Shown here in pieces: positions 13,366 to 56,026 of a DNA stretch of 64,000 bases. A program made the translations under genes and the position numbers. The DNA is from a virus (lineage: Duplodnaviria > Heunggongvirae > Uroviricota > Caudoviricetes), in IMG/VR virus record IMGVR_UViG_3300014204_000008, positions 34,837-98,836 of that record; one strand, given 5' to 3'. Position 1 is the first letter of the stretch. Every line of letters starts with the position of its first letter. Under the pieces are notes generated by a model. The model did not search any database and had not been told where the DNA came from. It worked only from the letters and a program-made list of their open reading frames with translations.

Positions 13366-14592
13366 TTATCCCTTCACGACGCCAAGTGGAGTAAGTTCAA
13401 CGATGATGTCGACAAGATCTTCCTGATTCTTCATGACGACATCAATATCTTTATAAGAACCTGGAGCTTCATCCAAATCCTCTACTCCTCGAATAGCATG
13501 AAGAACGCCCATATCGTCTAACTTCTTCTTCTCCTCTTCGAGGTTAAGTGTCCGCTGAGCTTCTCTGCGACCCATCTTCCGTCCTGCACCATGCGAACAA
13601 GAGTCAAAACTGTCCTTACAGCCCTTTCCACGTACAATATATGACTTAGTACCTTGAGAGCCTGGAATGATCCCTACGGTGCCATTTTGGGCCAATGTAG
13701 CCCCTTTGCGATGGACAAGGACATCCTTTCCGAAGTGATGCTCTAATACAGCATAGTTATGAGCGATATCTATGAATTCAGGAAACAGATCATCCGTACC
13801 ATCTTCATGAACGTGAGATCCTTTACGAAGATCCGATCCGCTTACATCAAAGATATCCTTGATACGATCCATCATCAGCTTACGATTCGCTTTTGCGAAC
13901 TCTACACAGTATTGCATCTCTTTCATGTAATCTTTCCCCTGTTGAGAATCGAGAGGAAGGAAAGCAAGATCCCATTCTTTTGGAACTGCTGAATGCCATT
14001 CCGCATTTAGATTTTTTGCAACTCCATTGTAGTAATCGGCCACTTTCTTCCCTAGATTTCGAGATCCTGAATGGATCATGATCCATATAAAGCCATCAGA
14101 TCCTTTTTGGATCTCTATAAAGTGATTTCCACCACCAAGTGTTCCGAGCTGCTTTAAAGCAGATTTATATTCCGATGAAACGATGTGGAGACCGGAAAAG
14201 TAACATAAATTCCCATTCTCTATCGCAACGCCATGAGGCATCAAAAGCTGATCCTGATCCTGTTCATGATGATTGTGTCCAAGAGGTATTTGTTCACGAA
14301 TCCTCCCCATTATCATCTTCAGCTGATCAATGGAAATTTCTGTTAAGCATGTTCGTACAGCTGTAACGCCACATCCAATATCTGATCCAACTGCATAAGG
14401 AATTACAACATTTTCTGTTGCCAAAACTCCACCGATTGGCATTCCGAATCCCTGATGAGAATCCGGCATGATCGCTACGTGGTGAAAGGCAAACGGAAGA
14501 TTAGCTAGATTCTTAGCCTGTTCTAAAGCCCCATCCTCGATCTCATCGAGCCACATCTTGATGGGTATATTCTCCGTTGAAATGATTTTCAT
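13366..14592 (-). CDS. rtcB: RNA-splicing ligase RtcB
   Basis: DSHQGFGMPIGGV, GGGNHFIEIQ, HSGSRNLG, NYAVLEHHF, SHGAGRKMGR and the full-length metal and GTP-binding residues of the RtcB family. Confidence 0.85.
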   Translation of the reverse strand: MKIISTENIPIKMWLDEIEDGALEQAKNLANLPFAFHHVAIMPDSHQGFGMPIGGVLATENVVIPYAVGSDIGCGVTAVRTCLTEISIDQLKMIMGRIREQIPLGHNHHEQDQDQLLMPHGVAIENGNLCYFSGLHIVSSEYKSALKQLGTLGGGNHFIEIQKGSDGFIWIMIHSGSRNLGKKVADYYNGVAKNLNAEWHSAVPKEWDLAFLPLDSQQGKDYMKEMQYCVEFAKANRKLMMDRIKDIFDVSGSDLRKGSHVHEDGTDDLFPEFIDIAHNYAVLEHHFGKDVLVHRKGATLAQNGTVGIIPGSQGTKSYIVRGKGCKDSFDSCSHGAGRKMGRREAQRTLNLEEEKKKLDDMGVLHAIRGVEDLDEAPGSYKDIDVVMKNQEDLVDIIVELTPLGVVKG

Positions 14593-16314: not shown

Positions 16315-16830
16315 CTATTTATCTCCAAAATATGCGATGATCTTTTCTACAATTTCTTCCGTAATTCCTGTTGCCCATTCCGTTTTGAAGAAGTGAGACA
16401 TCTGCTCAGGAAGCATATCAGAATCATCATCAAGAATAGCATACTCAACTACTTCAGTATGTTCATCTAACCATGCTTTAATCTCTTTTCCACGTTCACA
16501 CTCTTCCGCTCCTCCTGGAATTGGCATATGAGGTGTCTTTCCATAAAGAGGTGCGACGCGTTTCGATACTTCATCCGTAGATTCATCCCAAAGCCTCCAC
16601 GTTGAGCTGAGAACGACTTTAAGATCTGGAACATTGAGGATGATCTTCCCAACGAGAAACGAAAGATATGGATCAATGCCAATGAAACCAGCTGACGTAC
16701 GCTGAACCGTTCTTTTCGAATTTACAACACCATCTACGTCTAGAAAAAGCACCTTTATTCCTTTTTTCTTTTTGTCATCCATAAGAAATCTATTTATAGA
16801 ATTAGTTTCTCTACCATCTCGTCCATCCAA
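16315..16830 (-). CDS. HAD-superfamily hydrolase (putative nucleotidase or polynucleotide phosphatase)
   Basis: VLFLDVDGVVNS carries the HAD motif I DxDG. LSSTWR and ILDDD supply the downstream motifs. Confidence 0.55.
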   Translation of the reverse strand: MDGRDGRETNSINRFLMDDKKKKGIKVLFLDVDGVVNSKRTVQRTSAGFIGIDPYLSFLVGKIILNVPDLKVVLSSTWRLWDESTDEVSKRVAPLYGKTPHMPIPGGAEECERGKEIKAWLDEHTEVVEYAILDDDSDMLPEQMSHFFKTEWATGITEEIVEKIIAYFGDK

Positions 16831-16864: not shown

Positions 16865-17236
16865 TTATTTCGCTGCGTCGAGACTACTTTTGATACTTCT
16901 CAAGAGTGACTTCATATCCTCTTGTTCTTCATGTGTAAATTGATTGTTATCCTCAATGACATTCTGCAAGAAGCGCGCAACAACTAATGGGACGACCACA
17001 AGTGGTACAACGTGCATAAGAATGATCCCAATCAACCTTCCGAAGAATGTTACAGGATAGATGTCTCCATAACCAACCGTCATTGCCGTAACACATGACC
17101 ACCAGATCGAATCCCATAAACTCTTTTTCTCCACAAAGGAGAATGCTATAGAACTCAATACGATGATGGACGCATAGATTACTGTAAGCTCCTTAAATGT
17201 ATCAGTAGCCCTAGCAATAGACTTTTGGAATTTCAT
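16865..17236 (-). CDS. minimal two-TM potassium channel (Kcv-like)
   Basis: 123 aa. TM1, pore helix, the canonical selectivity filter TVGYGD, TM2, and a short cytoplasmic tail. Confidence 0.7.
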   Translation of the reverse strand: MKFQKSIARATDTFKELTVIYASIIVLSSIAFSFVEKKSLWDSIWWSCVTAMTVGYGDIYPVTFFGRLIGIILMHVVPLVVVPLVVARFLQNVIEDNNQFTHEEQEDMKSLLRSIKSSLDAAK

Positions 17237-17237
17237 A

Positions 17238-17801
17238 CTAGAACTTCACCTTTGGAGCTTTCTCCGATCCTACGTCACTCTTAAATAGTGAACGTGGATC
17301 GAAACCGAACAGCTTGGCGAAAATATTCTTAGGAAACCGACGAATGTTCAAGTTATAGTTTGAAGCGGTCGTATTATACTGATCGCGAGCTTTTGCAATA
17401 GAATCTTCAGTCTTGCCAAGATCTGCCTGCAATGACTTTACGTTCTCATTACTTTTAAGCTCAGGATAAGCTTCTGTGATGACAAGGAGACGAGACAGTG
17501 CAGATTCTACATTCCCAGCTGCTGCTGCCTGTTCACTAGAACTCTTTGATCCAGCATAGGCAGAACGTGCATCGGCGATGTCTTTGAAAACCTTTTGTTC
17601 CTGACCCTGCGCGCCCTTTACGGTCTCTACAAGATTCTCGATAAGATCAAGGCGACGCTGATACTGCGTCTCAACCATCGACCATGACTTATCAACTTGG
17701 GTACCACTCTTTACGAGTGAATTGTAATTCCCGACGAGCCAAAGACCCGCAAGAACGAAGAAACCAGCAATGGAGAGAAAAATGATAGTAGCTTTAGACA
17801 T
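17238..17801 (-). CDS. lemA: LemA-family protein
   Basis: N-terminal TM, then NYNSLV ... QVDKSWSMVETQYQRRLDLIENLVETVKGAQGQEQKVFKDIADARS, typical of LemA. Confidence 0.7.
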   Translation of the reverse strand: MSKATIIFLSIAGFFVLAGLWLVGNYNSLVKSGTQVDKSWSMVETQYQRRLDLIENLVETVKGAQGQEQKVFKDIADARSAYAGSKSSSEQAAAAGNVESALSRLLVITEAYPELKSNENVKSLQADLGKTEDSIAKARDQYNTTASNYNLNIRRFPKNIFAKLFGFDPRSLFKSDVGSEKAPKVKF

Positions 17802-18414
17802 ATGACGGTTTTGATGAACGCTTATTGATTAAGTACGCGATACCAGCAATAACACCTCCTAGAAACAGGATCGTGATCACCCAATTAAGAATATACATTG
17901 GATCTGTCCCTTCTTCCTGAACAACCTTTTCGGTTGCTGCTGCGCCATTCTCACCAGGTGTTGAAACAACAGCTTCTCGATGCTGTTGATTCGACATAAT
18001 GAGGTAGAACGGAAGCCAGTCCATGATTCCACTATCTCGATAGTAAACAGTAGAACCTACTGGTGCTGTATATCCTCCACGAAACTTGGGAGCAAAGTCC
18101 TTATCAACGACATAACCCTTATTCGAATATGTCTTACTTCCTACCGTCTTTTTTGAAGGTGACGTTACTGTCTTTGTTGCTGTAGATGGCTTCACTGAAG
18201 GAGCCTTTGGAGGTGTCACTTTTGGAGCAGCTGGTGCGGTAACTGGAGAAGGCTTTGCTACCGGTGTAGGAGTTGTCTTCACCGTAGGAGTAGATGGTCT
18301 CGCTGCTGGTCTTGCAGAACCACCTCGCGCACCTCCGCCCTTAGCACTCACTGAATGAGGAATAAGAAAGACTGACACTAAGAGAATTGAGATAAAAACA
18401 ATGATTTTTTTCAT
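17794..18414 (-). CDS. secreted Pro/Thr-rich protein with a C-terminal membrane anchor
   Basis: Signal peptide MKKIIVFISILLVSVFLIPHSVSA, PT-rich linker, C-terminal TM. Sits where a TPM/YgcG-like partner is usually found next to lemA. Confidence 0.5.
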   Translation of the reverse strand: MKKIIVFISILLVSVFLIPHSVSAKGGGARGGSARPAARPSTPTVKTTPTPVAKPSPVTAPAAPKVTPPKAPSVKPSTATKTVTSPSKKTVGSKTYSNKGYVVDKDFAPKFRGGYTAPVGSTVYYRDSGIMDWLPFYLIMSNQQHREAVVSTPGENGAAATEKVVQEEGTDPMYILNWVITILFLGGVIAGIAYLINKRSSKPSYV

Positions 18415-22384: not shown

Positions 22385-24604
22385 CTATTTATCAACAGAT
22401 ACCATCTTCCGTTCTATTGCAGAAAGAACAAGATTTGCGAACGTTGATTCAACAGCTTCTTCGGTACCATCGACGAGCTTCGAGATAACTCGATCTTTCG
22501 ATGAGATAATATTTTTCATAACTTCATCAATCGTTCCTTTTGAAAAAAATTGGTAGACGGAAACTGGATTCTTCTGACCGATACGATGGCATCGTGCTTC
22601 AGCCTGAGAAGCATCAGATGGACACCAGCTAAAATCTAGAAACAATACGATATGTGCATTCGTAAGTGTAATACCTGTATTCGCTGATTTAATCCCACCA
22701 AGAAAGATCTTCTTCTCAGGATCGTTTTGGAATGCTTTTACAATATCTCTACGCTCCTCATCAGCCGTTTCACCTAAGATCGTAACCGCTGAAGATCCAA
22801 AGTATTCACCTAATTGATGGATAGGATCAACAAACGATGAGAAAACGACAATCTTTTCTCCATTTTCGATAACGTCTTCAATAAATGAGATCGCAGATTT
22901 TAACTTTCCAGCAGATGCAATCTGCCGAAGAACGTTGAGCTTCACAAGCTGTTTTGCTTGGAGTGATCGCAACGCCTCTTTCGACGTTTTCTTTTTCTTC
23001 TCAACGAGAAACTTAAAAAGATCTTCTTCGGCCTGGACGTAATCAGCTTTAGCCTCTTCTGATAATTCTACGGGAACAGAGATAAGAGGAAGTTTTTCTG
23101 GAAGGTCGTCTAGAACATCTTCCTTCTTTCGACGTAAGAAGTATGGAGCAATTCTTTTACGCAATTCATCAATATTCGTAGAACCAGAAGAATCCCAACC
23201 GTACATGCCCATATGTCCTCCACAGAACTTTTTAGAAAACGACATCCAGCTTCCCCATTCTTTCGGATGAAGGATGTTCAATGGGACGAACAGCTCCGAT
23301 GGTCTATTCATGACAGGCGTCCCAGACAGAAAGAGAACATGTTCTGATGAACGTGCTAAAAACATCGCTGCTTTTGTACGCCTAGCTGCGAGTGATTTTA
23401 TCATGTGACTTTCATCAAATATGATTGCATCCCATCGAAGAACGGAAATAGGTTCAACGAACTTTCGAAGAAGATCATAGTTCACGATAAAAACATTCTT
23501 TTTCGGATCTCGAAAAACTTTTGATGGCGTCTTGGAATCAATGACAACTGGTTTCAATCTCGTCCACTTCTCAACTTCATCGTACCAGGAATATTTAACC
23601 GTAGCCGGACAAACAACAAGAACACGAGAGAAATTCTCGTGAGCAACGTATGCGAGAGATTGGAGACTCTTACCACAATTATGAACAATAAACCCATTCG
23701 CAATGAAATTCCTATCAGGATCATCCATCACAACATCATAGACATGATGCTTTCCAACACCATCAATAGAGACAATCTCACGAGCAGAACATGCTTCATC
23801 AGAATCTGGAGTAATAGATGATTCCATGAAGACTTCTTCGCCAATAGTCAATGAACTTGCTTCAACCCACTCAACATCATTTCCAAATCTCGCGACAAGA
23901 ACCTTATGATCTGGCGTGAGGATGATGCTCTTCTTCTCTTTCGCAACCTGGACCGTAATACGAATAGCATCTTTCTTCCCCTTGTCTAGAACGTCCATAA
24001 CCTGATTCAAATGAAATGGAAGAACCTTCCCTTCGAGACATGACCGAAGAAAAACCTTCTTTCCATGCCAAGCATCTTTAGAGAATTTCTCATAAAACGA
24101 AGAAAGCTTCATCTCTTCTTTTTTTGCATTCCCAATGAAAACAGAAACGATCGCATCTCCAGAGATACAACCCATTTCGTCCGCTAGGATTGCTCGCCCA
24201 TTCGCATTCAAAAGAAACTCAGTTCCAACGCGTTGATACCCATAGAGTTTCTCACCATTTTTGACATTATTTGGGACAAAATCCGTTTCTTTCTTTTCTT
24301 TCAGATACATAGCCTGATCCTTTCGAACTTCAGCCTCTTGTTGCATCAAATGATTGAGTTTCCATTTATTTCTTACCGTATCCGAAACACTTGTCGTTGG
24401 AAACTTATTCACGATAAGGGCGACAATCTCATACTGAGAAAATCTCCATACCTTGCTCGTTGCATCAAAAGAGAATTCCTTCCAACCATACTTCTCCTTG
24501 ATGAGCCTACAAAAATCCAGAAATACAACTGAAAAAGGGAACTCAAACACTAATTCGTGATAAGCCGTCTTTTCATATCGTATTTCTGGATTTAAGACCG
24601 GCAT
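22385..24604 (-). CDS. SNF2-family helicase interrupted by a mini-intein
   Basis: LYGYQ, ADEMG / CGKSLQ (motif I split), DESH motif II, LSGTP motif III, QAEARCHRIGQ motif VI. Confidence 0.85.
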   Translation of the reverse strand: MPVLNPEIRYEKTAYHELVFEFPFSVVFLDFCRLIKEKYGWKEFSFDATSKVWRFSQYEIVALIVNKFPTTSVSDTVRNKWKLNHLMQQEAEVRKDQAMYLKEKKETDFVPNNVKNGEKLYGYQRVGTEFLLNANGRAILADEMGCISGDAIVSVFIGNAKKEEMKLSSFYEKFSKDAWHGKKVFLRSCLEGKVLPFHLNQVMDVLDKGKKDAIRITVQVAKEKKSIILTPDHKVLVARFGNDVEWVEASSLTIGEEVFMESSITPDSDEACSAREIVSIDGVGKHHVYDVVMDDPDRNFIANGFIVHNCGKSLQSLAYVAHENFSRVLVVCPATVKYSWYDEVEKWTRLKPVVIDSKTPSKVFRDPKKNVFIVNYDLLRKFVEPISVLRWDAIIFDESHMIKSLAARRTKAAMFLARSSEHVLFLSGTPVMNRPSELFVPLNILHPKEWGSWMSFSKKFCGGHMGMYGWDSSGSTNIDELRKRIAPYFLRRKKEDVLDDLPEKLPLISVPVELSEEAKADYVQAEEDLFKFLVEKKKKTSKEALRSLQAKQLVKLNVLRQIASAGKLKSAISFIEDVIENGEKIVVFSSFVDPIHQLGEYFGSSAVTILGETADEERRDIVKAFQNDPEKKIFLGGIKSANTGITLTNAHIVLFLDFSWCPSDASQAEARCHRIGQKNPVSVYQFFSKGTIDEVMKNIISSKDRVISKLVDGTEEAVESTFANLVLSAIERKMVSVDK
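23678..24169 (-). mobile_element. mini-intein (about 164 aa) inside the Walker A motif of the SNF2 helicase
   Basis: CISGDAIV at the N-splice, TPDH block B, VYDVVMDDPDRNFIANGFIVHN at the C-splice followed by +1 Cys. Removal restores DEMGCGKSLQ. Too short to hold a homing endonuclease. Confidence 0.7.
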
Positions 24605-40351: not shown

Positions 40352-40428
40352 TCTGACGTAGTTCAGCTGGATAGAACAGAGGACTTCTAAGCCTTTAGAC
40401 ATCGGTTCGAACCCGATCGTCAGAACCA
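40352..40428 (+). tRNA. tRNA-Arg (anticodon UCU), CCA encoded
   Basis: 7-bp acceptor TCTGACG/CGTCAGA, D-arm GTTC-AGCTGGATA-GAAC, loop CTTCTAA, T-arm ATCGG-TTCGAAC-CCGAT, ACCA end. Confidence 0.6.
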
Positions 40429-40502
40429 TGGAGTTTATGTCAGTTATTCTCCTATAAAAATATTGATACGGGTTTGGCAGGAACGTATAAAAACTGTCCC
40501 AT

Positions 40503-40576
40503 CGCGGAATGGAGAAATGGCATCTCGTCAGTTTCATAAGCTGAAGTTTCCAGTTCAAATCTGGATTCCGCATCCA
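40503..40576 (+). tRNA. tRNA-Met (anticodon CAU), C1:A72 mismatch, CCA encoded
   Basis: D-arm GAGA-AATGGCA-TCTC, anticodon arm TCAGT-TTCATAA-GCTGA, T-arm TCCAG-TTCAAAT-CTGGA. Could instead be an Ile(LAU) or initiator-type tRNA. Confidence 0.6.
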
Positions 40577-40577
40577 G

Positions 40578-40665
40578 GCAAGCGTATACTGCTAAGGAGG
40601 CAGCGCAGACTGTAAATCTGTTGTCTTAAATGACTCGCTCGGATCGTTCCCGAGAGCTTGCACCA
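40578..40665 (+). tRNA. tRNA-Tyr (anticodon GUA), class II with long variable arm, CCA encoded
   Basis: Anticodon arm GCAGA-CTGTAAA-TCTGT, variable hairpin, T-arm CTCGG-ATCGTTC-CCGAG. Four nt between acceptor and D-stem is unusual. Confidence 0.45.
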
Positions 40666-40666
40666 A

Positions 40667-41024
40667 GGGTCTGATCATATTTCGATAGGTTGCTCATTGA
40701 AAAATTGCAGGACAAGCTGTAGTAACTTGTTAAAAGGCTACGAAATTGTAATTGCCAAAGCTATTGAAAGTCTGAAGTCGTTCTACACTTCGGTGTTTCG
40801 AACCCCTTCATTCGTTGCGTCATTCGTCTAACGAACTGATGCCCGATCATCATGATTTGTTTGTAGGTCATGAATGATCGTCACTTATACAAACTGGTGG
40901 AGAACACAAATCTCACGCTCTGAATGTAGGTACATAGCAGCTCTTGCTTTAAGGAGCTAATCCTGTGAATGAAATTTTTCATATATCAGCCTATACACGG
41001 GAGAATCACCCGTCAGATCCACCA
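40667..41024 (+). ncRNA. ssrA: tmRNA (ssrA), about 358 nt
   Basis: 5' GGGTCTGATCATATTTCGATAGG aligns with the E. coli tmRNA 5' end GGGGCUGAUUCUGGAUUCGACGGG. 3' ACGGGAGAATCACCCGTCAGATCCACCA aligns with GCGGGUUCAACUCCCGCCAGCUCCACCA. Acceptor GGGTCTG/CAGATCC carries the G3:U70 alanine identity pair. A-rich tract, TAA, TT, then GCC is a resume-codon context like E. coli UAG-UC-GCA. Confidence 0.65.
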
Positions 41025-41027
41025 GAG

Positions 41028-41102
41028 AGGAATGTAGCTCAACGGTAGAGCAATTCGCTTATATCGAATAGGTCGTGGGATCGTCACCCACCATTCCTAC
41101 CA
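41028..41102 (+). tRNA. tRNA-Ile (anticodon UAU), CCA encoded
   Basis: Acceptor AGGAATG/CATTCCT, D-arm GCTC-AACGGTA-GAGC, anticodon arm ATTCG-CTTATAT-CGAAT, T-arm GTGGG-ATCGTCA-CCCAC. Confidence 0.55.
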
Positions 41103-41103
41103 T

Positions 41104-41191
41104 CGGCCTGTGATGAAATGGTATACATGGGAGGCTTAGACCCTCTTGCCCTTTATTGGGTTTGCAAGTTCGAATCTTGCCAGACCGACCA
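41104..41191 (+). tRNA. tRNA-Leu (anticodon UAG), class II, CCA encoded
   Basis: Acceptor CGGCCTG/CAGACCG (one mismatch), anticodon arm GGAGG-CTTAGAC-CCTCT, long variable arm, T-arm GCAAG-TTCGAAT-CTTGC. Confidence 0.55.
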
Positions 41192-41321: not shown

Positions 41322-42128
41322 ATGAACAAGATTAATCTTATCATTTCTGGTGTCATTGCATTTGCACTTTTAAGCATCATAATGATCCTAAATCCATTTG
41401 CACAGGTTTCAGCTGGTGAGCGTGGAGTTGTTCTAACATGGGGTGCTGCCGGAGATCAGGTTCTTACAGAAGGCCTCCACATGGTCACACCAATCGCTCA
41501 ACATGTTCAGATTGTAGATATTCGAGTTCAGAAGGAACAGGTAGATGTTGCAGCAGCTTCAAAAGATCTCCAGACAGTGAATTCAACAGTTGCTATTAAC
41601 TTTCATCCAGATCCAAGTAAGGTAAACATTCTTTGGAAGACCATTGGTAGTGATTATTCATCTCGAATCATCTCTCCAGTCGTTCAGGAAGGCGTTAAGG
41701 CTGTCACAGCCCGTTATACGGCAGAAGAACTCATTACGAAGCGAGAAGAGGTTCGTGACGGTATCAAGAATATTCTCACTGAACGTTTGAGCTTGAGTAA
41801 CATCCTTATTGATGATTTCTCTATCATGAACTTCTCCTTCTCTAAGGGATTCAATGATGCGATTGAAGCGAAACAGACAGCTGTACAAGATGCATTAACG
41901 GCAGAAAATAAGTTGCGACAAATCAAGGTTGAAGCCGAACAGCGTGTTGCCACAGCTCAGGCAGAAGCTCAAGCTATCAAACTTCAGAGTGATGCCGCGA
42001 ACAATGACAAGTATATCAATTTGAAAGCCCTTGAAGTTCAACTTGAAGCAGTCCATAAATGGAATGGTGTCTTGCCAACACAGATGACACCGAATGGAGC
42101 AGTTCCTTTCCTGAATCTTACGAAATAG
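41322..42128 (+). CDS. SPFH/Band-7 (stomatin/prohibitin-like) membrane protein
   Basis: N-terminal TM, ERGVVLTWG ... GLHMVTP ... IVDIRVQ, then a long coiled-coil tail with AQAEAQAIKLQ, typical of SPFH. Confidence 0.7.
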   Translation: MNKINLIISGVIAFALLSIIMILNPFAQVSAGERGVVLTWGAAGDQVLTEGLHMVTPIAQHVQIVDIRVQKEQVDVAAASKDLQTVNSTVAINFHPDPSKVNILWKTIGSDYSSRIISPVVQEGVKAVTARYTAEELITKREEVRDGIKNILTERLSLSNILIDDFSIMNFSFSKGFNDAIEAKQTAVQDALTAENKLRQIKVEAEQRVATAQAEAQAIKLQSDAANNDKYINLKALEVQLEAVHKWNGVLPTQMTPNGAVPFLNLTK

Positions 42129-42221: not shown

Positions 42222-42440
42222 ATGAACACTTCAAAAGCTCGAATCAATCCATTCTATCCTAAACAGCACTTTACCCGTAAGGATCGTCGAAAGAATTACG
42301 ATAATGCTGACTATCTGTGGATGATAGGGACGGGTTGGCGTAAAGACTTAAAATGCGCAACTGCCCGTAAGTCTAGGAGAAGAAAGATCGCAGATGAGAC
42401 ACCTTATAAAAAGCTTGTAGATCCATGGGCCTTTGATTGA
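42222..42440 (+). CDS. small basic protein (72 aa)
   Basis: ORF. Confidence 0.35.
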   Translation: MNTSKARINPFYPKQHFTRKDRRKNYDNADYLWMIGTGWRKDLKCATARKSRRRKIADETPYKKLVDPWAFD

Positions 42441-42958
42441 ACCTATTGGAGATGACGTTAGATCACTATGGTGGTCTTCCGTCTATGATAGATGATCTGA
42501 AATGACTTCTTTTCATCTATCATAGACGGAAACACGATGTTTCCGTCATTCGTCTTCGTGGACAATAAGCGTATAAAGATTGAACATGTTGAAGGGAACG
42601 ACCTCGGTCTTCCTGTGTAGACACTATCGAGCTTTGCTTATTACGAATCTTAGACACAAAAGTTCCATAGACTGATAAATCTCCCTGGAGATTTCGCAAG
42701 ATAGGTCGAATGGTCAGGAAAATCAAAGATTAAGTAGCGGATAGAGAAACGGGCATCATTTCCCCTTAAAAGGAATGCCTACTCTATTGGTAAAATCACT
42801 GGTAACTCTTTTACGTGTATGGATGTGATATCGTGTACACGTAAGTGATCTTAATCTTTCTTTCCTTGAGGTGATGAGAACATAACCGTTCCCCTTTTGG
42901 TGGAGCCTCTGTTAATCAATTCATCTCTTCAAGGAAGGAAGCACTGGAGGACTAATTC

Positions 42959-43069
42959 ATGAAAAATATTTCTATGACTTCCAAAAAGAAGCCAGCAGCC
43001 AAGACTTCCAAGAAGCCTACAAAGGTTGCAAAGAAGGTCGTGAAGACGACAAAGAAGGCATCAAAGTAG
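42959..43069 (+). CDS. Lys-rich 36-aa peptide with a strong RBS (GGAGGACTAATTCATG)
   Basis: MKNISMTSKKKPAAKTSKKPTKVAKKVVKTTKKASK. Embedded in the large noncoding region. Confidence 0.3.
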   Translation: MKNISMTSKKKPAAKTSKKPTKVAKKVVKTTKKASK

Positions 43070-43750
43070 GTTCCAGAGGATGATCTTTTGATCATGCAGG
43101 GCCTTTCGGTCCCTATACGGGACTTCCCTGAGAGTGTATGAAATTAGGGATATGATACACAGGTGAGTTCCTTTAAAGGGAAGAGATTAGTTCATGGGGT
43201 ACGTCCCTGCGGTTTCAAATTGGAACGTATTTTCCAGTGGAGTTTACAAATCAGGTGTAAGTCGATTTTCCTAGGAGCGGATCGACATCTTTAAAACCGA
43301 GTCCCCCATGAACTAATCTCTCTCGCCTCTAAGGAGCAATGAAAAGTCTAATGCTCGGAGCGTCGAAAGACGTGGATTGCCTTGCCACGGGGTGTCCGAG
43401 AATGATGTCAAATCATGGGGTGAGCGACCATTACTCTTTAGAGGTGGGATAGGATCTCCAGTCGTTGTAACACGCAGGGTGAGATCGCTATTCCAGCGAG
43501 ATAAAAAGTCGTCCTTATCAAGATGCTAGTGACCCTTAAATAAGAATCTGCTGACCAACGCTTACACTAGCCGTTGTAATGGTCGGCTCTCGCCTTGGAA
43601 CGATAATGTTGTTCAATGATATTGTGAAAGTAACTGCTTTCCCTGCCTATCAAAAGAACAGCCCCCCATTTTCGTTCCAAGGCGGATGGAGAATGAAGCC
43701 GTTCTTCAACCGTTGGCGATAGCGTTTATAAAAACGTGAGCTGTAGAGGA

Positions 43751-43890
43751 TTGAGTGGCGAAATTGGCAGACGCTGAAAGTCGAGCAATCGGCAAAGCTA
43801 GACGACTGATACGATCTCATTGCGTATCTAACTAGAAATAGTTGTCGGAGGACTAGCGTAACTGTGAGTTCAAATCTCACCTCAATCTTC
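43751..43890 (+). tRNA. tRNA-Leu-like gene with an insertion of about 55 nt (possible intron or tRNA-like structure)
   Basis: 5' GATTGAG-TG-GCGAAATTGGCAGACGC closely matches the tRNA-Leu acceptor and D-arm. 3' GTGAG-TTCAAAT-CTCAC plus CTCAATC completes a perfect 7-bp acceptor. The anticodon region between them does not fold canonically. Confidence 0.35.
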
Positions 43891-44139
43891 TTTCGCCTCA
43901 TGCTTCGGAGGATGTGTAATCAGCACAAGCTGGTGACCTTTCCCCCCTTCCGAAGCAGTAGGCGGGATCGGGAGCCTGATACCCGTGAGCGAGTACATAC
44001 TAGTCAGAGATACTACGGGGAGGTGCTTAACTTCCCGTTATACCAAGTCTACCCTCGCACGGGTTACGAAAGGACAAGGGGTATCTCTCTCGTTCGAAGA
44101 AGTAATGATAACAATTCAAACCGTTGCCAGGGCTGAATG

Positions 44140-44205
44140 TTGCAACTCAAGCATAGGAGCCGAAAGGCTTGACTGATGAGCGAAAGCGAAACGAGAAATC
44201 GTATC
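44140..44205 (+). ncRNA. hammerhead-ribozyme-like core
   Basis: CTGATGA-GC-GAAA-GC-GAAAC, then ACGA-GAAA-TCGT-A (stem III-like hairpin with an NUH site). Preceded by hairpin TCAAGC ... GCTTGA. Stem arrangement is not fully consistent with a canonical hammerhead. Confidence 0.3.
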
Positions 44206-44415
44206 TAAGAGTCCATATTCCTATGTTCAGTGATGGACGGTGTAGCCCAAAAAAAGAATTGTTTGATAGTTATTATTACTTTTTCGAACGGGATACCTCA
44301 TACGTTCCCTAAACATGTTGAGTGTTAGAGAAGTTGCAACTTCTCTCTCGCTTTCTGCTTTAATATGAATATACCTGGCGTTATATGCATAATGTGGCAG
44401 AAAGCGGGTAAACCT

Positions 44416-44867: not shown

Positions 44868-44905
44868 AGAACTTATCCCTTGGCTTAATTGCTGAGGGAT
44901 TTGTT
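44868..44905 (+). terminator. intrinsic terminator (ATCCCT ... AGGGAT then TTGTTTTTT)
   Basis: Hairpin plus T-run about 60 nt downstream of the promoter, convergent with the end of the giant - strand gene. Confidence 0.45.
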
Positions 44906-47900
44906 TTTTATGAACGAGTTGATGGCTCCGAAATACTTCTCAACGATTGGTTCGATCTGAGTGATAATACCCATGTAGCGATAAACATCCTCTTCGCGCT
45001 TTGCCCCTTCATAGCTTGAATAGTTCCTATTCATATCAGGTCTCGTGACAAGGTGGTATCCAATACGAAGGAGCTGATCTTCTGAGAGACCACTTCCATT
45101 TATCATATAGTCTTCAAAGACTTTATCCATGATCTTTTCAGATTCTCCAGCAAGTTTACCGGTTTCCATATTGTAGTCTCTACTGAACTCTTTCTCATCA
45201 AAAACTTCACCCTTCTCTTGGGCGGCTCTTCGCGCCTTATCCATGACAACGGAACGCGCTTTACGTCGCGCTTGGCGAGAAGCGTTGATGTTCGCGGCCA
45301 TCTTTACAATGTGAGATTCAGGCGTGCCAGAAGTAATCTTAAAGAAGTCCTCACCTTTTTCTTCAATAAGTGATTTCTTTACTTCCTGTGCCGCAAAAAG
45401 GTCTGCGGCGTTCTGGGCCTTGATATCTGTACGCTCAATTGGTTTTAAACCTCTGAACTGATCCAGTATCTCAAAGAATGGCGTCAACTTCCCATCGGCT
45501 GCATTGATTCGATCATTGAGGTTAAAGATTTTCTCTAAAGAATACACGAGATCAGATGTCGATTCCAGGGTATTCTTTTCTTCGTCGACGAGTTGAAATG
45601 CCGTCTGGAAGTCTCGAAGCTCTTTAGAAATCTTCAGGATCTCCTTCTTCGTCGTAACTCCAAAAAGATGTGAGATGAGAACTTGGTTCGCATCCTGAAG
45701 ACCTGTTTCCTTCAATCGACGTTCAAAGTCTCCATAGGTAACACCATCAACGGTCTCCTGTGCCAATTGACCAACGAAACGCGGATCGTTCTTCATATTC
45801 GAAGCAACAGGAAGATTCGAATCTCTTACTTGAGAGAGAATGCGACCTATTCCTTGTGCCTGACCAACGCCTTTCCCAGAATTCACTGCGGCATTTACCG
45901 TATAGCGAACACCTTGATCAGTCATTTCGATTGGCTTCTCTCCAGCTCCTTCTCCGAATTTCGTAAGAGGATCAAGAACAATATCTTTATCACTCTTACG
46001 CTGTGTTTCAATATAGTCAGCGTATTCCTCAGGAATGCCTCTCCCCTGGAGTTCATGCCCCTTCCCATAGATAGGGAAGACTTCATAAGCATCTCCATCA
46101 AAGTCGAACTCTTTTCGGACATATCCATCATATGCAGAAGTGATAATCGTGCCTTTTTTCACCTTCATTCCAAAGTCCTCAGCAATAACAACGTCTGCTT
46201 TTGCAAGAGCCGTAAGTCTCGTGATAGGTTGGCGAATGGAAACAACACTCGTTGGTTTTCCGATGCGCTCCCAGTCTGCACGAGAAAGCATGATTTCATT
46301 TGGCTTCAGATAGAGGTTCTTTGCCTGTTCCTTAAGGAACGTTTTTCCATAATCACTTAGACGGTTTGCCTTATCAGCGTCTTCAAGAACATCTACAATT
46401 CTATAGATATCTGCTTGATCGTCTAAGAGGTATCGAGCGTCTTTCTCTGAAAGAACGCTGTCACCAAATAACTCATTGAAATGAGTTCGTAACGTTCCTA
46501 CTTTGTCCTTTACTTCTTTTGACTTTGCGAATGTCACGAGTTCTGCGACATGAGCGAAGTGACCAAGGTCTTCTTTCTTTGGATGATTTGCAACTTCAGA
46601 AATCTTCAAAGCCCCTTTTGAAGCAAGATCTGGTTGAACGTAATTGTAGGTAGATTCTCCTAAGAATCTTCCTGACATGATCTTTGATTGGAAAGCTTTT
46701 GCGATATTCTCTTCAAGTTTCTTTTCAATAAACATGTCTGGCGTATCCGAGCGACTGAGGAGCTGATTCATCTTCTCCCAATCTGCACTATCAATTTCTC
46801 CAACAAGGTCTATACCAAATTTCTCTTTGAATTTCGTATTAGCCTCTCGAATAACCTCACGTATCGGTGTCCCGTTTTTCTTTGCTTCTCGAATCGAGGA
46901 GAAGAGATCTGTGTAATCCTTGATTGGTTCTGAGAAGCGTTCCGTGAAAGCTTTATTTACAACAGGATCATTTGAAGCTCGTGAGTAGATAGAAGCAGCA
47001 GCCTTTGGCTTTGTAACCGCTTTCTTTGGGACAACCTTTGCGTGCCAAGATGAAGAAGGCGTCGTGCCTCCAACAATCCCATCTCCCATATCTTCAAGAA
47101 GTCCTAACCCAATTTTAACATTCTCTGAAGAGCCAACGATCGAGAACTTATCAAGAGGTTTCCCAATACGTCGTTCGAAAGAACGTTGCATGTGCTCAGG
47201 CATTGGATAGAATTGACCTTTGATGATTGCTGTTCCACTTCCAGTGTTCCAGACAAGGTTAGATTTGATATATCCAAGAGATGGGTCAGAATTCATTGCC
47301 TTCAAGAGAAGTTTAAATCCTTCTTCGGGAATGAAGTTCGCTCCATCCATAATATCTTTTCCATTAATCCCATCAAGAACCTTTGTACGCTTCACACTTT
47401 CCGTTGGGAGTTGGAGCATGTTCTCATCGACAAGCCCAAGTTCTCCCATTTTCTTTCCTGGAAAAACGAAGAGTGGCATCTGAACTTCATTCCCCTTTTC
47501 ATCTCGAAGATCGAGTTTTGGTTCAGAAAAGTTGAGAATGCTTGTACGCTTGTTGAGCTTACCGAAATTCGAAGCTGTTTTCTGATCAAGACCTACGACA
47601 TTCTGATAGAAAGAAACTCTAAATCGCTCACTTGGCGTCATCTTTTCAGCACCTTCGCCCGTATACATGTTTGCAAGCTTCTCGTTGTATTTTACCAAAA
47701 TCGTATTCTTAATGTTGTTTCCAGCAATACCAATAACCACGTAACTGTCCTTTTCAGCACGTCCACTATTAACGATATCAAGAACTGCTTGATAGGCATC
47801 ATCTGATTTTGTTTCAACCAAGCCATCTGTCTCATAACGCTTCAATTCAATCTTTCCAATATCTGGATTTCTTGATGTGAAGTCTTCAATGAGTCTATCT

Positions 47901-54976: not shown

Positions 54977-56026
54977 TTATATTGGTTTCTTTTGATTTAA
55001 AAAGATATTTGGGTTTATGTACTTCCCATACGCATCACGAACTCGATAATCAAGATGAGAACCTGTACCACCAGATGTGGAATAGGTACTTCCGGAGTTT
55101 CCCATTTCGCCGATTAACTGACCTTTCTTTACAGTATCTCCTACCTTTACCCATTCACTGTTAAGATGACTGAAACGATGTTTATTTCCACTAGAATCTT
55201 GAATTGTTATATTGTTTCCGAAACCAGCATCGCCTTGTTTCCTTCCAGTTTCTTCAGCAATGACTTTGCCTTCCACAAATGAAGGGATCTTTGTTCCAAT
55301 CTTATTCGCGATATCTATTGCTGGGTGTGAAGCTTCATACCTCGTCGAATCTCCAAATCTTGTTGTAACCGTACCTAAAGAGGTTGAAGGAGTTTCCATT
55401 GAGGATTGTGGACCAGAAATACTTGATTGTGAACTAGAAGTTGTTCCTAATCTCTCTAAGGCCTTATTGAATACGTTACCAGGAGCTACGCGACGTGATA
55501 CTTCTTTTCCTCTATACATCAGCTTAGAAGGATTCTCGTTAGACATCTGTGCTACTTGAACCTGACTAGCCGTAGGCGCGGCTATGGTTTCTGTAGGAAG
55601 ATTACGATACTTATTATACATCGAAACAACATTTTTGACGTACTTTGGTACAGAAGTACCTGTAACATCTTTTGACATGTTGTTCGCGACAGGTCTCCCA
55701 GAAAACCATACCGAGGCGACATCTGCTGGATTCTTGTATTGTTGAAACGACGAACTCATCTTAAATCTCGCTACGGCATCTTGGATTGCTGGATTCTTTA
55801 AGAATTCATTTACGGTATACGATCTCCCTAAAGCTTGTTTTGTCCAACTAGGAATATTTGCAGCCATGACTTGATACTTACCATATGCTCTATCTCCAGA
55901 AGCAGTCTTAGGCCCTATAGCTCCGTAATTTCCTCCAGATTCCTGTTGAGCTATCGCTTTCATGATAGCAGAAATAGCATCAAATGATTTTGGTGCCTTT
56001 TGCTGCGATGAAAGATTGTTTTCCAT
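54977..56026 (-). CDS. tail-associated lysin: lytic transglycosylase (SLT-like) plus M23 peptidase
   Basis: N-terminal QQESGGNYGAIGP ... AYGKYQVM matches the SLT catalytic Glu and GLMQ-like motif. C-terminal HPAIDIA ... GNSGSTYSTSGGTGSHLDYRV matches the M23 HxxxD ... HxH motifs. Confidence 0.7.
   Translation of the reverse strand: MENNLSSQQKAPKSFDAISAIMKAIAQQESGGNYGAIGPKTASGDRAYGKYQVMAANIPSWTKQALGRSYTVNEFLKNPAIQDAVARFKMSSSFQQYKNPADVASVWFSGRPVANNMSKDVTGTSVPKYVKNVVSMYNKYRNLPTETIAAPTASQVQVAQMSNENPSKLMYRGKEVSRRVAPGNVFNKALERLGTTSSSQSSISGPQSSMETPSTSLGTVTTRFGDSTRYEASHPAIDIANKIGTKIPSFVEGKVIAEETGRKQGDAGFGNNITIQDSSGNKHRFSHLNSEWVKVGDTVKKGQLIGEMGNSGSTYSTSGGTGSHLDYRVRDAYGKYINPNIFLNQKKPI

What the first reader, a model, noticed from the sequence alone, without database searches (positions are those of the whole stretch)
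16865..18414. Membrane module: minimal K+ channel, LemA and a secreted PT-rich anchored protein
The 123-aa protein has the exact TVGYGD selectivity filter flanked by two TM helices. That makes it a Kcv-sized potassium channel, which is very unusual for a bacteriophage. It is transcribed with a LemA-family protein (overlapping or adjacent stops and starts) and with a signal-peptide protein whose C-terminus is a TM anchor, the position a TPM/YgcG-like partner normally occupies next to lemA. A phage-delivered K+ channel could depolarise or repolarise the host membrane. Possible roles are superinfection exclusion, lysis timing, or countering membrane-targeting abortive-infection systems.
Basis: partly seen in the sequence, partly recalled or inferred. 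Interest (0 to 1): 0.7.

Follow-up and report, generated by a model that had tools for sequence, protein, structure and literature searches.

The report
Phage K+ channel–LemA–anchor protein cassette
A tailed phage carries a tightly coupled three-gene cassette (a small KcsA-like potassium channel, a LemA protein and a previously undescribed anchored envelope protein) that recurs intact in many unrelated uncultured phages, so the channel, which is not new for phages, probably works with two partners nobody has described.

Summary
Three minus-strand ORFs lie at exactly the stated coordinates: a 206-aa PT-rich protein, a 187-aa LemA and a 123-aa K+ channel with a TVGYGD filter. Their stops and starts overlap or abut.

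The channel call is solid (Pfam, PDB profile, AF2 pLDDT 89.8, KcsA superposition). It is not "very unusual" for phages: PHROG 14690 and Greiner et al. 2018 already list such channels, with no function tested.

The PT-rich protein is not TPM/YgcG-like. It matches no family library or solved fold. Its family has only 59 cluster representatives among 1.84 billion proteins, all looked up being metagenomic. It also lies upstream of lemA, whereas TPM partners lie downstream.

The new result is synteny. PT→LemA holds in 16 of 16 informative loci, and the channel follows in 12 of 13, across phages whose flanking genes are otherwise unrelated. Predicted topology puts the LemA domain and the PT ectodomain on the periplasmic face.

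Some PT homologs carry 1–3 tandem Hint domains at the conserved KGGG site.

I read this as a three-part inner-membrane module that sets a K+ conductance in the infected cell. The physiological role remains inferred.

The parts
17794..18414 (-). Gene 1: the 206-aa 'PT-family' protein, a type-I membrane protein of a previously undescribed family.
   Evidence: ORF. It has no Pfam, PHROG, NCBIfam or PADLOC family. The family has 59 representatives among 1.84e9 proteins. The 10 representatives looked up occur only in JGI, Logan or ENA metagenome assemblies. It is absent from 50,697 deposited phage records. In every informative locus it lies immediately upstream of LemA.
18343..18414 (-). Signal-peptide-like leader (residues 1-24, MKKIIVFISILLVSVFLIPHSVSA), with a predicted cleavage VSA|K.
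   Evidence: Read from the sequence. An AxA-type site followed by K/R-G-G-G is conserved across subclade A of the family. AF2 gives a helix at residues 2-16 followed by a low-confidence stretch. Cleavage is inferred by rule of thumb and was not tested.
18133..18342 (-). Predicted mature N-terminus KGGG, followed by a basic Pro/Thr/Ser/Lys-rich disordered spacer of about 70 aa (residues 25-94).
   Evidence: The G26 column is invariant in the 8-sequence alignment. AF2 pLDDT is 47-63 over residues 21-60. This same site hosts 1-3 tandem Hint domains in homologs.
17902..18132 (-). Conserved small beta-rich ectodomain (residues ~95-171; motifs P.F.GGY..P.GS.VYY, D(W/Y)LP(F/W)).
17815..17901 (-). C-terminal TM anchor helix (residues 172-200, hydrophobic core 178-196), followed by the short basic tail NKRSSKPSYV.
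   Evidence: AF2 helix 172-200. Across 12 homologs the N-flank is acidic (net 0 to -5) and the C-flank is basic (+1 to +4), which places the C-terminus in the cytoplasm.
17238..17801 (-). Gene 2: LemA family protein, 187 aa. The N-terminal TM is residues 6-24 (17730..17786). The LemA domain is residues 39-187 (17241..17687).
   Evidence: Pfam LemA at E 2.4e-51, covering the full 149-position profile. The NCBIfam MamQ match is partial (96.6 bits against a cutoff of 250). The basic N-flank, +5 in N-extended homologs, indicates an N-in/C-out topology, in line with published predictions for LemA and MamQ (PMC3905215). Its ATG overlaps the PT stop codon.
16865..17236 (-). Gene 3: 2-TM K+ channel pore subunit, 123 aa.
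   Evidence: Pfam Ion_trans_2 at 1.1e-14. PHROG 14690 at 9e-39 over positions 2-119 of 122. The PDB profile search is led by LmK 4H33 at 1.2e-14, with KvAP, Kv, NaK and KcsA below it. AF2 pLDDT is 89.8. Foldseek gives KcsA at rmsd 2.3-2.5 A over 89 columns. BLASTP against KcsA gives 35% identity over 80 aa, E 2e-14.
17063..17080 (-). Selectivity filter T53-V-G-Y-G-D58, preceded by the pore helix (residues 40-51, 17084..17119) with the WW aromatic pair.
   Evidence: The DNA reads ACG GTT GGT TAT GGA GAC. G55, Y56, G57 and D58 are invariant in 28 family members. The region aligns column for column with KcsA TVGYGD.
16871..16933 (-). Cytoplasmic C-terminal helix of the channel (residues 102-122), which begins inside the conserved F-T-H-E-E-Q motif (residues 100-105; F100 and T101 lie just upstream, at 16934..16939).
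   Evidence: AF2 helix 102-122 with pLDDT 90-97. F100, E104 and Q105 are invariant and T101 is nearly invariant across the family, including the solo bacterial homologs.

Best explanation
The region is a self-contained, translationally coupled three-gene cassette of a tailed phage. During infection it places three proteins in the host cytoplasmic membrane.

1. A KcsA-like 2-TM K+ channel subunit, expected to form a tetramer. Its N-terminal helix and its conserved C-terminal helix lie in the cytoplasm.
2. A LemA protein, with an N-in TM helix and its helical bundle on the periplasmic side.
3. A member of a new family. It has a cleavable leader, a mature N-terminus KGGG, a basic disordered PT-rich spacer of about 70 aa, a small beta-rich ectodomain, a TM anchor and a short basic cytoplasmic tail.

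PT and LemA form an obligate pair, and the channel is their usual third member.

My inferred mechanism has two parts. First, PT-LemA form a periplasm-facing accessory or scaffold complex that positions, stabilises or regulates the channel. This would be analogous to the single-pass auxiliary subunits of eukaryotic K+ channels. Second, the channel gives the infected cell a K+-selective conductance that ties membrane potential to the K+ gradient, and so controls K+ content and turgor. That would keep potential-dependent phage processes running and guard against premature depolarisation, which is what triggers holins and what many abortive-infection effectors cause.

Shown here: the gene structure, the folds and families, the predicted topology and the conserved synteny.
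Inferred: the physical complex, the direction of K+ flux and the physiological benefit.

My sub-confidences are:
- functional K+ channel, about 0.85
- the three genes are one functional unit, about 0.75
- PT-LemA act on the channel, about 0.45
- a role in clamping membrane potential or K+ homeostasis, about 0.3
For: Channel identity:
- Pfam, PHROG, PDB profile, AF2 and Foldseek all agree.
- The pore aligns with KcsA. It has the WW pair and TVGYGD, and Val replaces KcsA Glu71 (V49 is near-invariant).

Coupling within the window:
- There is an 8-nt stop/start overlap between PT and LemA, and a 1-nt gap between LemA and the channel.

Synteny:
- PT->LemA holds in 16 of 16 distinct loci with enough sequence.
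- The channel lies within 2 kb downstream in 12 of 13.
- Mean identities within the triads are only 46% (PT), 55% (LemA) and 42% (channel).
- No other flanking gene family is shared by more than two loci.
- The order survives insertions: an HNH endonuclease (L009), small ORFs (L008, L020), and a lipoprotein plus GSP_synth (L012).
- The distance matrices of the three proteins correlate: LemA-channel r=0.55 (Mantel p~0.001) and PT-channel r=0.35 (p~0.004).

Topology:
- Charge flanks put the LemA domain and the PT ectodomain on the same, outer face. This agrees with literature predictions for LemA and MamQ.

Theme of membrane-stress partners:
- Where the channel lacks LemA, it sits next to SPFH/Band_7 (L005) or DUF1190 plus GSP_synth (Aeromonas phage LAh_8).
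- lemA, a TPM-domain gene and ygiC are co-induced under envelope stress in Flavobacterium (PMC13236525).

Genomic position:
- The cassette lies among early or auxiliary genes (RtcB, HAD, HNH, SNF2 helicase), not in a lysis or structural block.
Against: - There is no experimental evidence that any phage K+ channel conducts; Greiner et al. call the function speculative.
- The units are separable. L187 has PT-LemA without a channel, although its relative L020 has one.
- At least nine phage loci, and all the close bacterial homologs I examined, carry the channel without LemA or PT.
- Triad-linked channels do not form a single clade in a (weak) NJ tree.
- The channel's conserved motifs (N-terminal ATDTFKEL, C-terminal FTHEEQ) are cytoplasmic and are also present in solo homologs. 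There is therefore no channel feature specific to the partnership, and any contact would have to be through TM helices or the short outer loops.
- The mirror-tree correlations may simply reflect co-inheritance.
- PT subclade B lacks a recognisable signal peptide, so the outside location of its ectodomain is uncertain.
- The host and the external K+ concentration are unknown, so the direction of K+ flux cannot be deduced.
Confidence: 0.4

Rival explanations
1. Two independent functions that merely travel together. On this view PT-LemA is an envelope or membrane-stress (or membrane-remodelling) pair in its own right. The K+ channel is a separate auxiliary gene for K+ uptake or homeostasis. They are co-located only because membrane-protein genes are co-expressed.
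For: L187 keeps PT-LemA without the channel. Many phages and bacteria carry the channel alone. Unrelated genes can sit between the members. LemA pairs with other partners elsewhere, namely TPM proteins and a 245-aa two-TM protein. The channel has no partner-specific motif.
Against: The channel follows in 12 of 13 informative PT-LemA loci, despite complete turnover of the flanks and only 25-60% channel identity. The start/stop junctions are overlapping or abutting. Both LemA and K+ channels are rare in phages (38 and 40 of 50,697 records), so repeated chance adjacency is implausible.
Confidence: 0.25
2. A superinfection-exclusion or anti-competitor module. The envelope-facing PT-LemA pair blocks or senses an incoming phage. 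The channel then alters the membrane potential or K+ flux that the competitor's DNA entry requires.
For: All three proteins are in the envelope and lie among early or auxiliary genes. The long, basic spacer could reach the cell wall. T4 and T5 DNA entry is linked to K+ conductance according to Greiner et al..
Against: There is no similarity to known exclusion or defence proteins (PADLOC gave no hit). No sensing domain was identified. Nothing in the data distinguishes this role from general membrane homeostasis.
Confidence: 0.15
3. A lysis-timing device. The channel or its partners would act like a holin, antiholin or pinholin regulator, setting the moment at which the membrane depolarises.
For: Holin triggering depends on membrane potential (established knowledge). 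The proteins are small membrane proteins.
Against: The cassette is not next to an endolysin or a lysis block in the window or in any related locus. The only peptidoglycan hydrolase seen (SLT+M23, 54977-56026) lies in the structural region about 37 kb away. A K+-selective pore is not a holin-type lesion.
Confidence: 0.08
4. One reading: a classical LemA/TPM(YgcG)-type system in which the PT-rich protein is the TPM-like partner, together with a virion-delivered, Kcv-like channel that depolarises the host at entry.
For: The LemA call is correct. The PT protein shares the general 'leader + ectodomain + TM' layout and Gly/Ser-rich low complexity with TPM partners. PHROG 1383, which the LemA protein matches, is labelled 'virion structural protein'.
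Confidence: 0.03

Closest known systems
2-TM K+ channels of cultured phages (PHROG 14690): Mycobacterium phages Myrna and Phabba, Acinetobacter phage ME3, Pseudomonas phage ventosus, Streptomyces phage BillNye, Aeromonas phages LAh_6/8/9. Catalogued by Greiner et al. 2018 (PMC6163359).
   Same: They have the same size (117-124 aa), the same architecture and a G-Y-G-D filter. They are 31-47% identical to the window protein and match the PHROG profile over its full length. As here, the closest cellular relatives were noted to be Acidobacteria.
   Different: Neither of the two neighbourhoods I opened (Aeromonas LAh_8 and Pseudomonas ventosus) has LemA or the PT gene next to the channel. The other cultured phages' neighbourhoods were not opened, but the PT family is absent from all 50,697 deposited phage records. 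The searched papers report no functional data and no partner proteins for these channels.
KcsA (Streptomyces lividans) and LmK (Listeria Lmo2059, PDB 4H33): prokaryotic 2-TM K+ channels.
   Same: They share the pore helix with a WW pair, the TVGYGD filter, the inner helix and a C-terminal cytoplasmic helix. Identity to KcsA is 35% over 80 aa. The AF2 model superposes on KcsA at 2.3-2.5 A.
   Different: The position of KcsA Glu71 is Val here. The inner helix carries two conserved prolines instead of the glycine hinge. The N-terminal ATDTFKEL and C-terminal FTHEEQ motifs are specific to this family. That an E71 substitution removes C-type inactivation in KcsA is from my own knowledge and was not tested here.
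Kcv channels of chloroviruses and other algal viruses.
   Same: They are virus-encoded, minimal, pore-only K+ channels, thought to manipulate host membrane potential and K+ (PMC6163359, PMC9405923).
   Different: Kcv proteins are 79-156 aa, and are packaged in an internal virion membrane and act at entry. From my own knowledge they mostly lack cytoplasmic helices. A tailed phage has no such membrane, so this protein must act from within the infected cell. Sequence similarity is closer to bacterial channels.
Bacterial lemA-ygcG(TPM)-DUF477(TPM) operons, and the LemA->TPM pair in uncultured megaphage LR745206.
   Same: LemA is paired and co-transcribed with a single-pass envelope protein that has a leader, an ectodomain, a TM helix and Gly/Ser-rich low complexity.
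   Different: In those cases the partner lies downstream of lemA and has a TPM domain. Here the partner lies upstream, has no TPM sequence or fold, and its Gly-rich segment is at the mature N-terminus rather than at the C-terminal tail. The downstream slot is taken by a K+ channel.
MamQ, the magnetosome LemA-family protein.
   Same: It has the same family and the same predicted topology: cytoplasmic N-terminus, one TM helix, and the helical domain on the luminal/periplasmic side. In 2016 it was described as the only LemA member tied to a cellular process, magnetosome membrane formation (PMC3905215, PMC4902198).
   Different: The window LemA scores 96.6 bits against the MamQ equivalog cutoff of 250, so it is not a MamQ. 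There is no magnetosome context.
Single-pass auxiliary subunits of eukaryotic channels (KCNE, DPP6 with Kv4; TPM-domain MOLO-1 with nicotinic receptors). This is a functional analogy recalled from memory.
   Same: The idea is the same: a pore-forming tetramer accompanied by single-pass membrane proteins with extracellular domains. Kv4.2-DPP6 complexes happen to top the Foldseek list for the channel model.
   Different: There is no homology. The analogy is an inference from conserved synteny and shared topology only, and no interaction has been shown.
Bacterial intein-like (BIL) and pretoxin-HINT domains.
   Same: Homologs of the PT protein carry 1-3 Hint domains (Pfam PT-HINT and Hint_2, above their thresholds). 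Each starts with Cys and ends in His-Asn.
   Different: The window copy has no Hint domain. In the homologs the residue after each Hint is Lys rather than Cys, Ser or Thr. The domains are tandemly repeated at one site of a small envelope protein, and each is flanked by K-G-G. I found no description of this arrangement.

Membership tests
K+ channel pore (Pfam Ion_trans_2 / KcsA-type 2-TM) | Signature selectivity filter T-[VI]-G-[YF]-G-D | tested here: met
   TVGYGD at residues 53-58. G-Y-G-D is invariant in 28 relatives. The motif aligns column for column with the KcsA filter.
K+ channel pore (Pfam Ion_trans_2 / KcsA-type 2-TM) | Profile match above the curated threshold | tested here: met
   Ion_trans_2 scores 54.5 bits against a cutoff of 22.5, E 1.1e-14. 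The family profile hits 262 PDB K+ channel sequences.
K+ channel pore (Pfam Ion_trans_2 / KcsA-type 2-TM) | Outer helix, pore helix, filter and inner helix fold | tested here: met
   AF2 pLDDT is 89.8, with helices at 2-36, 40-51 and 64-93. Foldseek gives KcsA at rmsd 2.3-2.5 A over 89 columns, probability 1.00.
K+ channel pore (Pfam Ion_trans_2 / KcsA-type 2-TM) | Tetrameric assembly and K+-selective conduction | not testable with these tools
   This needs electrophysiology or complementation of a K+-uptake mutant.
Phage K+ channel family PHROG 14690 | Full-length profile match | tested here: met
   E 9e-39, residues 5-122 on profile positions 2-119 of 122.
Kcv-type viral channels | Pore-only protein with essentially no cytoplasmic domains | tested here: not met
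   The protein is 123 aa, with a cytoplasmic N-terminal helix segment and a 21-residue C-terminal helix. It is more similar to KcsA and LmK.
Kcv-type viral channels | Carried in a virion membrane and acting at entry | not testable with these tools
   The window has tailed-phage structural genes (SU10 adaptor, tail-fibre-like), and such virions lack an internal membrane (established knowledge). Virion proteomics would settle the point.
LemA family (PF04011) | Profile match above threshold over the whole domain | tested here: met
   173.9 bits against a cutoff of 26.2, profile positions 1-149 of 149.
LemA family (PF04011) | A single N-terminal TM helix followed by the helical domain | tested here: met
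   The hydrophobic segment is residues 6-24, and the N-flank is basic across 12 homologs.
MamQ (NCBIfam NF040966 equivalog) | Score above the equivalog cutoff | tested here: not met
   96.6 bits against a cutoff of 250.
TPM/YgcG-type LemA partner (PF04536) | TPM_phosphatase domain by sequence | tested here: not met
   No Pfam hit for the window protein at E<=0.1, nor for 8 family members at E<=1.
TPM/YgcG-type LemA partner (PF04536) | TPM alpha/beta fold | tested here: not met
TPM/YgcG-type LemA partner (PF04536) | Gene located downstream of lemA | tested here: not met
   The classical order is lemA->ygcG->DUF477 and lemA->TPM. Here the PT gene is upstream of lemA in all 16 informative loci.
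Intein / Hint domain (for the PT-family protein) | Hint domain present | tested here: not met
   The window copy has none. Homologs L020, L174, P0076, P0100, P0101, P0105, P0107 and P0109 have 1-3.
Canonical intein (for the Hint domains in homologs) | A Cys, Ser or Thr nucleophile at the +1 position after the C-terminal His-Asn | tested here: not met
   Every Hint is followed by Lys-Gly. These domains therefore resemble BIL/PT-HINT domains. Autoprocessing was not tested.
Known anti-phage defence systems (PADLOC-DB) | A match to any defence-system protein model | tested here: not met
   No family at E<=0.01 for the three proteins or for the adjacent HAD protein.

The most novel reading that the evidence does not exclude
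PT and LemA are true auxiliary subunits of the phage K+ channel, acting from the periplasmic side. On this reading the PT protein is an inner-membrane-to-cell-wall tether. Its processed N-terminus (Lys-Gly-Gly-Gly) is exposed by signal peptidase in some phages and by Hint-domain autoproteolysis in others. That N-terminus would be the attachment point, possibly covalent, at the end of a spacer of about 70 residues that is long enough to reach the wall. The module would then couple envelope geometry or tension to K+ flux and turgor in the infected cell. It would also give the widespread but functionally obscure LemA family its first mechanistic role as an ion-channel partner.
Probability: 0.1. 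Interest if true: 0.85.

Novelty: new variant of a known kind. Interest (0 to 1): 0.58.

Why it matters
Phage K+ channels have been listed in databases and in one survey, but nobody knows what they do. Finding that one lineage of them is locked in a conserved cassette with two envelope proteins turns a lone annotation into a testable three-component system.

It matters in several ways:
- **LemA:** this is a very widespread bacterial family. A 2016 paper (PMC4902198) stated that only the magnetosome member MamQ had been tied to a process. The cassette gives LemA a concrete hypothesis: a partner or regulator of an ion channel at the outer face of the inner membrane.
- **New protein family:** the PT family has no recognisable fold relatives and a conserved processed N-terminus.
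- **Unusual Hint usage:** the family exposes one to three tandem, non-canonical Hint domains at a single site.
- **Phage biology:** control of host membrane potential, K+ and turgor bears on lysis timing, superinfection and resistance to membrane-targeting abortive infection.
- **Channel biophysics:** a 123-aa channel with natural single-pass partners would be a compact model for regulation by auxiliary subunits.

Tried and rejected
- **Near-identical DNA in deposited phages:** none found.
- **PT protein related to the 245-aa LemA-adjacent protein of Enterococcus Schiekvirus phages:** hhalign probability 1.9%.
- **HAD gene downstream of the channel as part of the module:** this was suggested by the HAD-like gene next to LemA in Enterococcus phages. 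It is not conserved in any other triad locus, and the two HADs are not significantly similar.
- **The 67-aa ORF six bases upstream of the PT gene as part of the module:** no homolog in other loci.
- **Defence-system membership:** none.
- **LemA next to the channel in bacterial genomes:** none among the 80 loci returned by the genome scan. The closest bacterial homologs, in Acidobacteriota, are solo genes in ordinary chromosomal contexts.
- **Triad-linked channels as one clade:** not supported by a weak NJ tree.
- **Fold search of the PT model in AFDB:** the library was unavailable. The BFVD search gave nothing.
- **Literature on phage K+ channels with partners, or on LemA mechanism:** only the Greiner 2018 catalogue, the MamQ papers and a transcriptome mention were found. 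One search was wasted on a loose query.
- **First pattern scan for PT homologs in viral contigs:** too narrow, yielding one locus. The broader alignment worked.
- **Host or source clue from cluster metadata:** none. The 10 representatives looked up are all metagenomic, and the few names they carry ('CobN') are evidently spurious.
Full report
**What is there**

- a 206-aa Pro/Thr-rich protein (18414..17794);
- a 187-aa protein (17801..17238);
- a 123-aa protein (17236..16865).

The stop codon of the first overlaps the ATG of the second by 8 nt (ATGTCTAA). The TAG of the second is separated from the ATG of the third by a single base. Consensus scans find no promoter-like site, and only weak terminator-like matches at chance level, inside the block. 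The whole stretch from about 24.6 kb to 11.8 kb is transcribed leftward.

The window is a phage:
- PHROG hits to helicase, SbcC and RtcB;
- an SU10-type adaptor, a phiEco32-like COOH-NH2 ligase and a tail-fibre-like glycine-rich protein;
- RecA/UvsX, DnaB-like, replication initiator and SbcD genes;
- four tRNAs and a tmRNA.

It has no close DNA relative among 50,697 deposited phages. The same cassette is found on a 52.5-kb Logan contig and a JGI contig, and the longest contig on record with these proteins is 98.9 kb.

**The channel**

- The 123-aa protein matches Pfam Ion_trans_2 well above threshold.
- A profile of 28 relatives hits 262 solved K+ channel sequences, led by the Listeria 2-TM channel LmK.
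- The AF2 model is confident (pLDDT 89.8). It shows an N-terminal helix running into TM1 (residues 2-36), a pore helix (40-51), the filter, TM2 (64-93) and a C-terminal helix (102-122).
- The model superposes on KcsA at 2.3-2.5 A.
- A direct alignment with KcsA (35% identity, E 2e-14) shows the WW pair and TVGYGD in register. Val stands at the position of KcsA Glu71, and that Val is near-invariant in the family.
- The family also conserves an N-terminal ATDTFKEL motif, two prolines in TM2 and an invariant F-T-H-E-E-Q at the start of the C-terminal helix. All of these are cytoplasmic or intramembrane.

I regard the claim 'K+ channel pore subunit' as established at the level sequence analysis can reach. 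Conduction itself is untested.

**It is not a novelty for phages**

PHROG 14690 is a 122-position family of exactly such proteins, which the window protein matches at E 9e-39. Forty deposited phage records carry relatives at 31-47% identity, from Aeromonas, Pseudomonas, Streptomyces, Acinetobacter, Mycobacterium and other hosts. Greiner et al. 2018 list these phage channels explicitly. They note an Acidobacteria protein as the closest cellular relative of the Myrna channel, and call any function speculative (PMC6163359). My genome scan agrees: the closest cellular homologs (49-55% identity) are solo genes in ordinary chromosomal contexts of Acidobacteriota MAGs.

**LemA**

The middle protein is a full-length LemA. 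It is not a MamQ equivalog. Charge flanks across 12 homologs indicate an N-in/C-out topology. These include three lineages with an extra N-terminal domain of 75-90 residues whose TM-proximal flank has a net charge of +5 in the two measured. Published predictions for LemA and MamQ say the same (PMC3905215). In 2016 MamQ was described as the only LemA member linked to a cellular process (PMC4902198).

**The PT-rich protein**

It matches nothing in Pfam, PHROGs, NCBIfam or PADLOC. An exhaustive HMMER search of 1.84 billion representatives, using a profile of its conserved half, finds only 59 proteins. The 10 representatives I looked up come only from metagenome assemblies, and none occurs in deposited phage genomes.

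The family layout, from N- to C-terminus, is:
- a Sec-type leader ending AxA;
- a mature N-terminus K/R-G-G-G-G;
- a basic Ser/Thr/Pro-rich disordered spacer;
- a conserved ectodomain of about 75 residues;
- a TM helix;
- a short basic tail.

**The main new result: conserved synteny**

I started from channel homologs and, independently, from PT homologs.
- LemA lies immediately downstream of the PT gene in all 16 distinct loci that have enough sequence.
- The channel follows within 2 kb in 12 of the 13 loci that have room.
- Mean pairwise identities among the triads are only 46% (PT), 55% (LemA) and 42% (channel).
- No other flanking gene family is shared by more than two loci.
- The order survives insertion of an HNH endonuclease (L009), small ORFs (L008, L020), and a lipoprotein plus a GSP_synth enzyme (L012, Pfam E 5.8e-141).
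- The distance matrices of the three proteins are correlated, with LemA-channel r=0.55 and Mantel p about 0.001. This fits inheritance as a unit but does not prove contact.

The exception is L187. It has PT-LemA and no channel, although its relative L020 has the channel. At least nine phage loci have the channel without LemA or PT. PT-LemA is therefore the obligate pair and the channel a frequent third member.

Both LemA and K+ channels are rare in deposited phages, at 38 and 40 of 50,697 records respectively. The PT family is absent from every deposited phage genome, so none of them carries the triad.

**How it most likely works**

Predicted topology puts the LemA bundle and the PT ectodomain on the periplasmic face. 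The channel's conserved motifs face the cytoplasm.

I infer a three-part inner-membrane module, expressed in the infected cell. PT-LemA would act as an envelope-side scaffold or regulator, and the channel would provide a K+-selective conductance. Such a conductance ties membrane potential to the K+ gradient and controls K+ content and turgor. I propose that it buffers the infected cell against depolarisation.

Circumstantial support comes from the channel's alternative neighbours in other phages, which are also membrane-stress-type families:
- SPFH/Band_7 in L005;
- DUF1190 plus GSP_synth in Aeromonas phage LAh_8.

In addition, lemA, a TPM-domain gene and ygiC are co-induced under envelope stress in Flavobacterium (PMC13236525). 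The cassette also sits among early or auxiliary genes, not in a lysis block.

The rivals are independent co-located functions, superinfection exclusion and lysis timing. Present data cannot exclude them.

**An unexpected feature of the PT family**

At least eight homologs carry one, two or three tandem Hint domains inserted exactly at the K-G-G-G site. They are L020, L174, P0076, P0100, P0101, P0105, P0107 and P0109, and their PT-HINT and Hint_2 matches exceed the Pfam thresholds, with up to three stretches.

Each Hint begins with Cys and ends in His-Asn, and each is followed by Lys-Gly rather than a Cys, Ser or Thr nucleophile. These are therefore not canonical inteins. Signal-peptidase cleavage (AxA|KGGG) and Hint C-terminal cleavage (HN|KGGG) would both expose the same N-terminus, which argues that the mature K-G-G-G end matters.

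One subclade has neither a hydrophobic leader nor, in some members, a Hint domain. How its ectodomain would be exported is unexplained.

**Verdict**

It overstates the rarity of phage K+ channels, and it is wrong about a TPM-like partner.
- The interest lies in the conserved PT-LemA-channel cassette and the new PT family, not in the channel alone.

Noticed in passing
Homologs of window 17794-18414: L020:3103-4107, L174:3657-5474, and proteins P0076, P0100, P0101, P0105, P0107, P0109: One to three tandem Hint domains (Pfam PT-HINT and Hint_2, above threshold) are inserted exactly at the conserved K-G-G-G site of the PT-family protein. Each starts with Cys and ends in His-Asn, and each is followed by Lys-Gly rather than a Cys, Ser or Thr nucleophile. 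Signal peptidase and Hint cleavage would both expose the same K-G-G-G N-terminus.
   Followed up: partly
window 42440-44365: An ORF-poor stretch of about 1.9 kb, in the window's highest-GC part, lies just downstream of the tRNA/tmRNA cluster and the SPFH gene. It contains many long-range inverted repeats. Folding 43070-44000 (+) gives a z-score of -7.2 against shuffles. No Rfam family matches at E<=0.1. It is a candidate large structured RNA; the strand and extent were not established.
   Followed up: partly
window 40667-41024 (+): A phage-encoded tmRNA (Rfam RF00023, 63.8 bits, E 1.4e-22) lies inside the tRNA cluster (tRNA-Arg, Met, Ile and Leu at 40352-41191). ARAGORN did not report it.
   Followed up: no
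window 41322-42128 (+): The same phage also encodes an SPFH/Band_7 membrane-scaffold protein (Pfam E 3.1e-31) with no NfeD-like neighbour. In locus L005 a Band_7 gene directly follows a channel homolog instead of LemA and PT.
   Followed up: partly
L012:3533-5007 and L001 (Aeromonas phage LAh_8) 2998-4939: The channel is repeatedly linked to a GSP_synth (YgiC/YjfC-like) enzyme plus a small lipoprotein or DUF1190 protein. In L012 this pair sits between LemA and the channel. In the Aeromonas phage it lies directly downstream of the channel.
   Followed up: partly
L019:4214-4999, L185:2427-3278, L183:4368-5210: Some LemA proteins of the cassette carry a conserved N-terminal extension of 75-90 residues, rich in Cys and His in L019 and L185, ahead of the TM helix. 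It has no Pfam match. Its basic TM-proximal flank supports an N-in topology for LemA.
   Followed up: partly
window 22385-24604 (-): The SNF2-family helicase has an insertion of about 150 residues within the SNF2 domain that matches Intein_splicing (E 8.5e-07, below the curated threshold). It is a probable mini-intein.
   Followed up: no
window 44885-52729 (-): A 2614-aa ORF has no Pfam or PHROG match. Two ORFs further on, beyond a 757-aa ORF that also has no family match, lies an SLT+M23 peptidoglycan hydrolase (54977-56026). The giant ORF is presumably a virion or ejection protein.
   Followed up: no
L016:2384-6131: In this viral contig the channel homolog sits among genes that look, by eye, like TerD, TerC and vWA-type tellurite-resistance-cluster proteins. 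Family searches were not run on them.
   Followed up: no
L189 (CAKLQH020000003.1, 'Acinetobacter phage MD-2021a'): This 240-kb 'phage' record carries gltD, ppdD and a classical lemA-ygcG-DUF477 operon, and looks like bacterial chromosome rather than phage.
   Followed up: no
L090, L092, L095 (Pyrinomonadaceae and Chloracidobacterium MAGs): The closest cellular homologs of the channel (51-55% identity in these three loci, with the same N- and C-terminal motifs) are solo chromosomal genes in Acidobacteriota. This echoes the remark by Greiner et al. about the Myrna channel, and is a weak hint about the gene's origin or the host range.
   Followed up: partly
window 13366-14592 and 16315-16782 (-): An RtcB RNA ligase and a HAD_SAK_2 ('Swiss Army Knife RNA repair') phosphatase lie just downstream of the cassette, which suggests a phage tRNA/RNA-repair set. 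L012 also carries an RtcB near its cassette.
   Followed up: no
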